This document shows, piece after piece, positions 5,545 through 6,946 of a DNA stretch of 17,189 nucleotides. Both the position numbers and the translations under genes were made by a program. This DNA comes from Candidatus Odinarchaeia archaeon. Its GTDB lineage: Archaea; Asgardarchaeota; Odinarchaeia; Odinarchaeales; Odinarchaeaceae. Position 1 is the first letter of the stretch, and each line of letters starts with the position of its first letter. The stretch spans positions 1 through 17,189 of the forward strand of contig JAHQXC010000023.1 of assembly GCA_029856525.1 (NCBI GenBank), given 5' to 3'. The notes below the pieces were generated by a model that did not search any database, was not told where the DNA came from, and worked only from the letters and a program-made list of their open reading frames with translations.

Positions 5545-6441
5545 CTATAATACAGTAGCGGATGCTTTACTATTATTTATATTTACAATTTTAACTTCGC
5601 CTTTAAAACTACTCCAAGCTTTTTTAAGAGATTCAACTTCATCTTCATCTATTAACGCAGCTATAGTAGGTCCTGTTCCTGAAACACTTACACCTTTAGC
5701 ACCGGCTTCAAACGCTTTGAAAACAATATCCATCGGTGTATTATAACAGGCCCCGTATAGGAAGCCGTTTAAACTCATAGCGTCTTCCACTAACCCCTTC
5801 TTAACTAATTCTACTAAGTGAGGTATCAGCCCTCCTATAAGCTTTGTTTTATTAATCGTCTCTGGTGTGCGTGTTAACGGTTTAAACTCGGGGATAAAAA
5901 GAGCTACTTTCACTTTATCTGTGAATGGTTTCCTGAATATTATCTCCCGTTTAACATTATCTGTGAGAACTAAACCGCCGAAGTAGGATGCCGCTGCATC
6001 GTCGAACGCCCCTGTAACGGTTACCTTAGACTCTATAGCGGCTTCAACTCCTATTTTAATGATCTCTATATCTGAAGCGCCCACTCCAAGCGCTTTAACA
6101 GCCGCTAACACGACGGCGTTAGCCGCTGCACTGCTGCTTTTAAGACCTTTCCCTATTGGAATATTACTGTAAGTTACCACTTTAACTCCTTGATTCCTTA
6201 TATTATATTTTTCGAATATTTTTCGTATACAATTCTCTATTAATTTAGTCTCCGTGTTTTCAAACCCTGAAATCACATACTCATATTTCTCTTCTGGCAG
6301 TAACTTCACTTCCGCGCGCGTCCATAAATCTACTCCTATCGCAGAGCCTAAACCAGCCGCTATCGCGTTGATAACTGTTATAGCTCCATGTGCAACAGCT
6401 GCAGCTCTTCTATTCAATTCATTCACCGGTTTCCTGTTCAA
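5545..6441 (-). CDS. aroK: Archaeal shikimate kinase (GHMP kinase superfamily)
   Basis: HGAITVINAIAAGLG, GHMP ATP loop PIGKGLKSSSAAANA, TGAFDDAAASYFGG and SGTGP, in an aro context. TTG start after GAGGGG. Confidence 0.92.
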   Translation of the reverse strand: MNRKPVNELNRRAAAVAHGAITVINAIAAGLGSAIGVDLWTRAEVKLLPEEKYEYVISGFENTETKLIENCIRKIFEKYNIRNQGVKVVTYSNIPIGKGLKSSSAAANAVVLAAVKALGVGASDIEIIKIGVEAAIESKVTVTGAFDDAAASYFGGLVLTDNVKREIIFRKPFTDKVKVALFIPEFKPLTRTPETINKTKLIGGLIPHLVELVKKGLVEDAMSLNGFLYGACYNTPMDIVFKAFEAGAKGVSVSGTGPTIAALIDEDEVESLKKAWSSFKGEVKIVNINNSKASATVL

Positions 6442-6482
6442 CCCCTCTTTTTAAATTTAAGCGAGCTCGATTGTAATTTTTT

Positions 6483-6508
6483 AAGCATCAATGCTTTTTA
6501 TATTTTCG
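6483..6508 (-). promoter_or_regulatory. Putative aroK promoter with an adjoining palindrome
   Basis: The minus strand reads CGAAAA (6508-6503) then TATAAAAA (6502-6495), overlapped by the inverted repeat AAGCAT-tg-ATGCTT (6496-6483). Confidence 0.45.
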
Positions 6509-6529
6509 TATATTTACATGGAGATTCAC

Positions 6530-6738
6530 GTTTAAACTTTATCGGCGTGAAGTCCCCCTGTGAAAGCTGGGGAAGCTGAAAAGTATTTATAGTTTCCCGA
6601 TCTTTAAAAAGGATAGTGATGCGGTGCGGGGGGCAGCTCTGAGACGCATGTTGAAAGAGAGCCTCTACCGGTCGAAAACACCGGCACGCTTCATCATTGA
6701 AGCAGGAAACCTCATCCGATAGAGGGGGGGTAGTTCAT
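6530..6738 (+). mobile_element. Non-autonomous IS200/IS605-family miniature element (209 bp, no tnpA or tnpB)
   Basis: Left end: TCAC (6526-6529), then 19 nt later GAAG (6549-6552) at the foot of hairpin TCCCC..GGGGA (6553-6573). Right end: TGAAGCAGGAAA, an imperfect hairpin CCTCATCC-GATA-GAGGGGGGG (6710-6730), then TAGTTCAT. The pairs GAAG/TCAC and GAAA/TCAT follow the TnpA(Y1) guide-to-cleavage-site pairing rule known from IS608 and ISDra2. Confidence 0.72.
6575..6592 (+). promoter_or_regulatory. BRE/TATA promoter inside the mini-element
   Basis: GCTGAAAAG followed by TATTTATAG is a near-consensus archaeal promoter. The predicted start near 6613-6617 is where the GC-rich structured segment begins. 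Confidence 0.6.
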
Positions 6739-6758
6739 ACTTTTAATTTTAAGTCTGT
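6615..6758 (+). ncRNA. Putative TnpB omegaRNA (reRNA): scaffold about 6615-6738 plus a 3' guide from flanking DNA
   Basis: GC-rich segment of about 124 nt with hairpins GCTCT..AGAGC, CCGGT..ACCGG and GCTTCA-tcat-TGAAGC, then the right-end hairpin and TTCAT. The GAAGCAGGAA..GGGGTAGTTCA ending is characteristic of tnpB 3' ends. Boundaries are inferred. Confidence 0.6.
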
Positions 6759-6946
6759 GAGCTCGAGGCTAAACGCTTAGAGAATAATTAGCATGTTTGA
6801 ATCTGTTCTATACATCTAACCTAGCGGACTAAACGGTTAAGCTGTATGGTGAAGTCTTCTTGTCAAAGTTGGATTTATAAATCTCTGGGGTGCTGTCAGC
6901 TCTCTCCTGAAATGTTGAAGACTTTTATAAAATATTAAATTAGGCT

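What the first reader, a model, noticed from the sequence alone, without database searches (positions are those of the whole stretch)
6575..6760. Stand-alone TnpB omegaRNA gene with its own promoter and no tnpB
Seen: a near-consensus promoter placed so that transcription would begin at the start of a structured segment of about 124 nt ending at the element boundary TTCAT, with no tnpB coding remnant that I can recognise. Established: TnpB guides consist of the right-end scaffold plus flanking DNA, and the TAM equals the left-end target motif. Inference: a guide-only cassette for a TnpB or a nuclease-dead TldR-like protein supplied in trans, with TAM TCAC and guide ACTTTTAATTTTAAGTCTG. It would cut the empty allele of this locus or, if domesticated, another site. 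It is transcribed antisense to the aro genes.
Basis: partly seen in the sequence, partly recalled or inferred. Interest (0 to 1): 0.8.

Follow-up and report, generated by a model that had tools for sequence, protein, structure and literature searches.

The report
Gene-less mini-transposon carrying TnpB guide RNA
The flagged stretch is one of at least 21 copies of a roughly 200-base protein-less IS200/IS605 mini-transposon (a PATE) in an Odinarchaeota (Asgard archaeon) genome; it keeps its parent's promoter fused to the guide-RNA scaffold of a TnpB nuclease, which is a real but already described kind of element.

Summary
Window 6575-6760 contains an archaeal BRE/TATA promoter (TTTATA 6586-6591), a predicted start near 6613-6616, a 124-nt GC-rich segment ending at 6738, and variable flank after that.

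It is not a single stand-alone gene. It is one of at least 21 near-full copies of a 160-210 bp repeat in this 1.32 Mb genome (copies at most 89%, median 71% identical).

A covariance model of the RNA part hits the 3' end of tnpB genes, on the same strand and ending at GTAGTTCAC, in other Asgard genomes. The left half matches the left end plus TATA box of those full-length elements. So an internal deletion fused the tnpB promoter to the omegaRNA scaffold.

Empty sites in congeners give the target motif (TAM) TTTAA (6531-6535), not TCAC.

- No cognate TnpB is in the assembly. The two resident TnpBs are only 21-29% identical to the cognate type, and their own 3' ends barely match the model.
- The guide has no second target in the genome.
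- No RNA data exist.

PATEs that encode omegaRNAs used in trans are already described (Meers 2023). This scan had already reached the same reading on other copies in this genome. Locally, a 552-bp insertion holding this copy splits the aroE/aroK overlap seen in congeners.

The parts
6531..6535 (+). Target motif / TAM TTTAA. It is host DNA to which the element is attached on its 3' side. The window copy has one extra A (6536) before the usual first element base C (6537).
   Evidence: TTTAAC starts nearly every copy. Empty sites of copies C78 (in G003) and C51a (in G001) keep TTTTAA followed directly by the right flank.
6537..6577 (+). Left end (LE) with an imperfect subterminal palindrome (about 6554-6573: CCCCCTGT / GAAA loop / GCTGGGG).
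   Evidence: It is conserved in most copies and deleted in five. It has the same design as the LE of full-length tnpB elements in relatives (L053, L048, L039, L042). It is nearly identical to the right-end palindrome of L042.
6578..6592 (+). Archaeal BRE/TATA promoter (TTTATA 6586-6591). This is the parent's tnpB promoter.
   Evidence: At least 90% conserved columns in 21 copies. A TATA box sits at the same place in the LE of full-length elements. Function is inferred from the archaeal promoter geometry that is established knowledge, not measured.
6613..6621 (+). Predicted transcription start (6613-6616) and the former tnpB start codon ATG (6619-6621). The internal deletion junction lies at or just after this ATG.
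   Evidence: Distance from the TATA box. The MITE sequence ..AAAGATG|CGGGGCTGGGAC.. was compared with the tnpB 3' coding sequence ..AATGCGGGGCTGGGAC.. of L045. Inference.
6615..6738 (+). omegaRNA-type scaffold of 124 nt (long variant), made of a tnpB 3'-coding remnant plus the right end. It includes hairpin 6668-6684, an enclosing helix 6659-6662/6688-6691 (alternative hairpin 6688-6703), the right-end palindrome 6710-6730 and the terminal motif GTAGTTCAT 6730-6738 (consensus ..CAC).
   Evidence: Covariance model R1 hits window 6636-6738 at 94 bits. It also hits the 3' ends of tnpB in relatives on the same strand. Helices are 80% paired against 36-53% when partners are slid, with compensatory changes across genomes.
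6739..6758 (+). Would-be guide (flanking DNA, ACTTTTAATTTTAAGTCTGT). It contains two T4 runs.
   Evidence: Homology among copies ends at 6738. The 12-nt seed occurs only here in the genome, and there is no TAM-flanked near-match elsewhere.
6428..6980 (.). Whole 552-bp insertion relative to three same-genus genomes, where aroE and aroK overlap. It holds the PATE plus unique DNA.
6741..6872 (+). Degenerate tandem duplicate of 6449-6570 (left flank plus LE palindrome of the PATE). Weaker traces continue to 6980.
   Evidence: Local alignment score 68 against 33.8 +/- 5.6 (maximum 54) in 200 shuffles. Repeats D1 and D5. It is not detected by the family HMM.

Best explanation
Window 6537-6738 is one copy of a non-autonomous IS200/IS605-family element (a PATE/MITE) in an Odinarchaeota genome. 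It arose from a tnpB-only (IS1341-type) element by an internal deletion that removed almost the whole tnpB ORF. The deletion joined the left end, with its BRE/TATA promoter and start codon, directly to the last 125 or so nt of tnpB plus the right end, which is the omegaRNA scaffold.

Shown here:
- repeat family membership;
- homology of both halves to full-length elements;
- the position of the homologous RNA at tnpB 3' ends;
- the TTTAA target.

Inferred:
- The promoter fires near 6615 and makes a scaffold RNA that runs into the flank, giving a guide from 6739.
- With a cognate TnpB in trans, this RNA would cut the excised (empty) allele TTTAA+guide and so help retain the element (the homing model of Meers et al.).
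- Movement would need a Y1 TnpA in trans.

In this genome the copy is most likely an ageing relic. I put the chance that it is still used as a guide at about 20-25%. Its main present effects would be a possibly active promoter pointing antisense towards aroE, and its share in an insertion that uncoupled aroE from aroK.
For: - Copy number: at least 21 near-full copies with unrelated flanks.
- RNA homology: model R1, built only from the RNA part, matches the region overlapping or abutting the 3' end of tnpB ORFs on the same strand, ending ..GTAGTTCAC, in L045, L048, L041 and L043 (full length, E 1e-7 to 1e-12) and in L049, L050, L053 and L055 (last 40 or so nt).
- Coding remnant: the long variant (window, C32, C119b) keeps the tnpB codons for the ..GLGRP..PVE..PL tail.
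- Left end: LE plus TATA are homologous to the LE of full-length elements L053 and L048.
- Palindromes: the LE and RE palindromes resemble each other.
- Target: empty sites keep TTTAA, with no target duplication.
- Recurrence: independent deletion derivatives with other junctions exist in other Asgard genomes (L039, L042, L046/47).
- Literature: PATEs arise by core deletion of IS605-type elements (PMC3119063) and 'often encode omegaRNAs' that need TnpB in trans (PMC10055086).
Against: - No cognate TnpB is in the assembly. The resident TnpBs (C93, C44) are 21-29% identical to the cognate type. Their own 3' ends score at most 9 bits with R1.
- Copies are old: at most 89%, median 71% identical.
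- Five copies lack the LE palindrome.
- This copy has T for the terminal C and an extra A at the left junction.
- There is no Rfam match.
- The insertion site here lacks a clean TTTAA empty allele, because the surrounding 552 bp are also absent from congeners. How this copy arrived is therefore not a simple TnpA insertion into the ancestral aroE/aroK junction.
Confidence: 0.85

Rival explanations
1. This is a domesticated stand-alone guide-RNA gene. The host keeps the cassette to programme a TnpB or a nuclease-dead TldR-like protein against a chosen target.
For: The promoter and scaffold are intact in anatomy. The genome has a TnpB with Gly at the RuvC-II glutamate (C44) and one with an intact D-E-D triad (C93). 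Five copies lost the LE palindrome yet keep promoter and RNA.
Against: It is one of at least 21 dispersed copies with transposon ends. It is absent at this site in three congeners. The guide has no second TAM-flanked target. Conservation is about even along the element (0.79-0.90 per segment), so there is no extra constraint on the RNA. The resident TnpB 3' ends are of another scaffold type. The C44 protein sits in an ordinary IS with tnpA.
Confidence: 0.05
2. It is a pure fossil. The promoter is dead and no RNA is made, so the block is neutral DNA left by an extinct transposon family.
For: Old, diverged copies. No cognate TnpB. Only one tnpA in the assembly, and its IS has different palindromes.
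Against: The BRE/TATA block is among the best conserved parts and is near consensus in this copy. The assembly is 93% complete and several contigs end inside these repeats or at an IS end, so a TnpB may be unassembled.
Confidence: 0.3
3. It is a regulatory antisense or cis element of the shikimate operon. The RNA made from 6615 onwards reads into the aroE 3' end and modulates aroE/aroK expression.
For: The orientation is antisense. The insertion separates aroE and aroK, which overlap in congeners.
Against: The same element sits in 20 unrelated contexts. It is absent from congeners' aro operons. Two T4 runs directly after 6738 could stop archaeal RNA polymerase early (inference).
Confidence: 0.05

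Closest known systems
PATEs (palindrome-associated transposable elements) derived from IS605/IS1341-type transposons. They were defined in Haloquadratum walsbyi (Dyall-Smith et al. 2011, PMC3119063). PATE-like elements that encode omegaRNAs were reported in Geobacillus stearothermophilus (Meers et al. 2023, PMC10055086).
   Same: - No protein gene.
- Subterminal imperfect palindromes at both ends.
- No inverted terminal repeats and no target duplication.
- Insertion next to a short target motif.
- Origin by core deletion of a tnpB element.
- Heterogeneous multi-copy family.
- Carries the omegaRNA region and would need TnpB and TnpA in trans.
   Different: - The host is an Asgard (Odinarchaeota) archaeon.
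- The deletion places the parent's archaeal TATA promoter and start codon directly at the 5' edge of the scaffold, so the guide RNA would be a primary transcript rather than a processed tnpB mRNA.
- No cognate TnpB was found in this assembly.
Canonical TnpB omegaRNA (reRNA) of IS200/IS605 elements such as ISDra2
   Same: The homologous RNA in full-length relatives overlaps the 3' end of tnpB and ends at the right-end boundary. The guide would be the flanking DNA, and the TAM is the left-flank target motif.
   Different: There is no tnpB in cis. The sequence is unrelated to the Rfam models (no hit). The TAM is TTTAA rather than TTGAT. Expression and activity are untested.
TldR (TnpB-like nuclease-dead repressor) guide RNAs
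   Same: One resident TnpB lacks the RuvC-II glutamate.
   Different: There is no adjacent TldR gene, no conserved host target for the guide, multi-copy mobile ends, and no conservation in sister species.

Membership tests
IS200/IS605-derived PATE/MITE | Too short to encode a transposase; no ORF | tested here: met
   The element is about 202 bp (6537-6738). Only a 7-codon frame follows the former ATG.
IS200/IS605-derived PATE/MITE | Subterminal imperfect palindromes at both ends that resemble each other, with no terminal inverted repeats | tested here: met
   The LE palindrome CCCCCTG(C/T)-GAAA-GCTGGGG(G) and the RE palindrome CCCCATCC-GATA-GAGAGGGG were compared. The L042 RE palindrome equals the family's consensus LE palindrome except for one loop base.
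IS200/IS605-derived PATE/MITE | Insertion 3' of a short target motif without target-site duplication | tested here: met
   Empty sites for two other copies keep TTTTAA followed directly by the right flank. For the window copy itself no clean empty site exists.
IS200/IS605-derived PATE/MITE | Multi-copy, with ends homologous to full-length IS605/IS1341-type elements | tested here: met
   At least 21 copies. The LE matches L053/L048 and the RE matches eight tnpB loci.
IS200/IS605-derived PATE/MITE | Mobilised in trans by a Y1 TnpA | not testable with these tools
   There is one tnpA in the assembly (C44), and the palindromes of its IS differ from the PATE's. No empty allele was seen in the source run's contigs.
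TnpB omegaRNA | The RNA region overlaps the 3' end of tnpB and ends at the transposon right end in full-length elements | tested here: met
   R1 hits L045, L048, L041 and L043 at or over the tnpB stop, on the same strand.
TnpB omegaRNA | Conserved secondary structure with covariation | tested here: inconclusive
   Three helices are 80% paired against 36-53% when partners are slid, with compensatory changes between genomes. However, the alignment was model-fitted and the structure was derived from the same sequences. RNAalifold on the own copies alone is weak. The terminal hairpin is also a DNA signal for TnpA.
TnpB omegaRNA | Match to curated omegaRNA/IS605-orfB type covariance models | tested here: not met
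   There was no Rfam 15 hit at gathering threshold or at E up to 10. Rfam covers few omegaRNA lineages.
TnpB omegaRNA | A transcript exists and carries a flank-derived guide | not testable with these tools
   No RNA run holds this DNA.
TnpB omegaRNA | Cognate TnpB available in the cell | tested here: not met
   tblastn with six cognate-type TnpBs finds only C93 and C44 at 21-29% identity. Their 3' ends score at most 9.2 bits with R1. The assembly is 93% complete, so absence is not proven.
TldR-type domesticated guide | Guide complementary to a host target next to the TAM, with a nuclease-dead partner kept with it | tested here: not met
   No second site exists for the guide, and no partner gene is nearby.

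The most novel reading that the evidence does not exclude
The 21 or more dispersed cassettes, each with its own promoter, are not relics. They would form a natural multi-guide repertoire for a resident TnpB acting in trans: either the catalytically intact C93 enzyme, the RuvC-Glu-to-Gly C44 protein, or an unassembled cognate. This would give an Asgard archaeon a CRISPR-array-like set of single-guide genes. The copy in the window would in addition impose antisense control on aroE after breaking the aroE-aroK coupling.
Probability: 0.08. Interest if true: 0.65.

Novelty: new member of a known kind. Interest (0 to 1): 0.27.

Why it matters
It documents omegaRNA-bearing PATEs in Odinarchaeota and several other Asgard lineages. 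It shows that deletions which fuse the tnpB promoter to the guide scaffold arose independently in different genomes, with different junctions.

That supports the published view that TnpB, its guide RNA and TnpA are modular parts that can act in trans. It also gives a compact natural design for a primary-transcript omegaRNA with TAM TTTAA.

For annotating this genome, it explains a 552-bp disruption of the aroE/aroK overlap, warns against reading the block as a new host RNA gene, and explains several contig breaks. It opens no new question by itself.

Tried and rejected
- **Rfam.** Searches at gathering threshold and at E up to 10 gave only chance hits. There are no tRNA or tmRNA genes.
- **Sigma-70 and terminator scan.** Nothing relevant was found, and the scan is not suited to an archaeon.
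- **RNA evidence.** No RNA holder is listed for this DNA. The only holder is the probable source metagenome.
- **Source-run contigs.** Laying them on 6200-7200 showed no joint or empty allele. The unitigs simply break inside the repeat.
- **RNAalifold on mixed own copies.** This gave a poor consensus. The automatic structure in model R1 has only 7 pairs, so R1 acts mostly as a sequence profile.
- **TCAC as TAM.** Rejected, because the left flanks of other copies are unrelated.
- **Second target for the guide.** None was found.
- **Family HMM on 6739-7000 and 6400-6530.** No hit. The second degenerate copy rests only on the pairwise alignment.
- **The C44 IS as parent.** Its left 190 or so bp align with the C119b copy, but its palindromes and right end differ.
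- **Paper search for Asgard TnpB mini-elements.** Nothing specific was found.

Full report
**Context.** The window carries an archaeal-type shikimate operon on the minus strand: DeoC-type aldolase, DHQ synthase II, DHQase, ASA dehydrogenase, aroE at 6947-7840, GHMP-type aroK at 5545-6441, EPSP synthase and chorismate synthase. The nearest public records for aroE are 'Candidatus Odinarchaeota archaeon' MAGs at 81% and 71% amino-acid identity. The genome held for the window has 1.32 Mb in 127 contigs, is 93% complete and has 38% GC.

**Observation.** The finding lies in the 505-bp gap between aroK and aroE.
- GAAAAG + TATTTATAG at 6578-6592 is a good archaeal BRE/TATA. With the TATA box at -30 to -23, transcription would start at 6613-6616.
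- From there a GC-rich 124-nt block runs to ..GTAGTTCAT at 6738, followed by AT-rich DNA.
- Rfam has no match. The single-sequence fold is not exceptional (z = -1.7).

**It is a repeat.** The segment 6528-6738 recurs throughout the genome.
- BLAST and a profile HMM find at least 21 near-full copies, plus fragments at contig ends.
- All copies start TTTAAC-TTTATCGGCG.
- Most carry an imperfect palindrome with a GAAA loop, then the strongly conserved BRE/TATA block.
- The RNA block follows, ending in a second imperfect palindrome and GTAGTTCAC. After that point the homology stops.
- Copies are at most 89% and in the median 71% identical. Conservation is fairly even along the element.
- The window copy belongs to a 'long' subfamily (with C32 and C119b) that has about 24 nt more at the 5' edge of the RNA block.

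**Homology to TnpB elements.** I built covariance model R1 from the RNA part of 13 short-form copies.
- R1 matched 22 of 61 genomes of the same phylum, with up to 27 hits per genome.
- In eight of the fetched loci the hit lies at or over the 3' end of a tnpB ORF, on the same strand, and ends in GTAGTTCAC. The match is full length in L045, L048, L041 and L043, and covers the last 40 or so nt in L049, L050, L053 and L055.
- The long variant aligns with the tnpB codons for the C-terminal tail ..GLGRP..PVE..PL... The scaffold is therefore the 3' coding end of tnpB plus the right end, which is exactly where omegaRNAs lie.
- The left half of the repeat (TTTAAC, palindrome, TATA) is homologous to the left end of full-length tnpB elements (L053, L048). 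The promoter is thus the parent's tnpB promoter.
- The deletion junction sits at the former start codon (ATG 6619-6621).
- Other Asgard genomes hold independent deletion derivatives with different junctions. L039 keeps 16 N-terminal codons, and L042 keeps the RuvC-III codons.

**Structure.** Across own copies and relatives, three helices are 80% paired against 36-53% when partners are slid. These are an enclosing helix, the hairpin at 6668-6684 and the right-end palindrome.
- There are clear compensatory changes, for example CCGGU/ACCGG to CGAGA/UCUCG to CGGG/CCCG.
- This is supportive but not independent of how the alignment was made.

**TAM and guide.**
- Left flanks of the copies share no TCAC.
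- For two copies in tight gene contexts, same-genus genomes have the empty site..TTTTAA followed directly by the right flank.
- The target/TAM is therefore TTTAA (window 6531-6535). The element runs from C (6537; the window has an extra A at 6536) to 6738.
- Its 12-nt seed is unique in the genome, and no near-match follows a TTTAA elsewhere.

**Partners.**
- Pfam searches find one IS605-type element with tnpA and tnpB (C44) and one solo tnpB (C93, cut by the contig end exactly at its right end ..GTAGCTCAC). The rest are fragments.
- C93 TnpB has the D-E-D triad. C44 TnpB has Gly at the RuvC-II glutamate.
- TnpBs of the cognate type from relatives find only these two, at 21-29% identity.
- The two genes' own 3' ends score at most 9.2 bits with R1.
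- No compatible TnpB is therefore evident, though the assembly is incomplete and breaks at repeats.

**Local history.**
- In three congeners aroE and aroK overlap, with the aroK GTG start inside the aroE 3' end.
- Here 552 bp (6428-6980) are inserted. This gives aroE a new tail (AEASQINKSV) and leaves the aroK GTG at 6427-6425.
- Besides the PATE, the insert holds a degenerate tandem duplicate: 6741-6872 resembles 6449-6570 (score 68 against 33.8 +/- 5.6, repeats).
- This copy's arrival was therefore not a simple TnpA insertion into the ancestral junction.

**Comparison with the known.**
- PATEs were defined as protein-less IS605-type derivatives with subterminal palindromes. They often arise by core deletion (PMC3119063).
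- Meers et al. state that PATEs 'often encode omegaRNAs' that need TnpB in trans (PMC10055086).
- The element meets the PATE criteria I could test.
- The omegaRNA assignment rests on positional and sequence homology, not on expression. No RNA run holds this DNA, and no empty allele appears in the source run.
- Earlier notes of this scan on other copies in this genome reached the same reading. I had formed mine before reading them and tested it independently.

**Verdict.** The element is a new member of a known kind, of modest interest.

Noticed in passing
window 6428-6980: aroE and aroK overlap (translationally coupled) in three same-genus genomes. Here a 552-bp insertion separates them, replaces the aroE C-terminal tail (now AEASQINKSV) and leaves the native aroK GTG at 6427-6425. 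The TTG at 6441 listed by the ORF finder is probably an artefactual extension.
   Followed up: partly
window 6741-6872 vs 6449-6570 (traces to 6980): A degenerate tandem duplicate of the PATE's left flank plus left-end palindrome. About 300 bp of the insertion have no match elsewhere in the genome, and their origin is unexplained.
   Followed up: partly
G000:C44:8616-9902 (L072:717-2000): The TnpB of the only tnpA-bearing IS has Gly where the RuvC-II catalytic Glu should be (..IVVGNL..). The RuvC-I and RuvC-III Asp residues are present. It may be nuclease-dead or recently inactivated.
   Followed up: partly
G000:C44:8000-8190 (L072:101-291): The left 190 or so bp of this IS, upstream of tnpA, align with a PATE copy (C119b). 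The aligned part includes the piece derived from a tnpB 3' end, which suggests a chimeric or recombinant left end.
   Followed up: partly
L039, L042, L046, L047 (other Asgard genomes): These are independent promoter-to-scaffold deletion derivatives with different junctions. One keeps 16 N-terminal tnpB codons and one keeps the RuvC-III codons. Some genomes have up to 27 model hits.
   Followed up: partly
G000 copies C93:30-216, C1:4232-4394, C11:33587-33747: A variant subfamily lacks one internal hairpin. Its 5' scaffold part looks closer to the 3' end of the resident C93 tnpB (..CTGTGAG.C.CGC..).
   Followed up: no
window 6741-6750: Two T4 runs (TTTT AA TTTT) lie at guide positions 3-12. In archaea, oligo-T tracts can terminate transcription, so this copy's guide might be cut short.
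   Followed up: no
G000 contig ends: C17:16994-17049, C31:14809-14844, C85:9938-9977, C93:27305: Several contigs end inside these repeats or exactly at an IS right end. Mobile-element copies, possibly including a cognate tnpB, may therefore be missing from the assembly.
   Followed up: no
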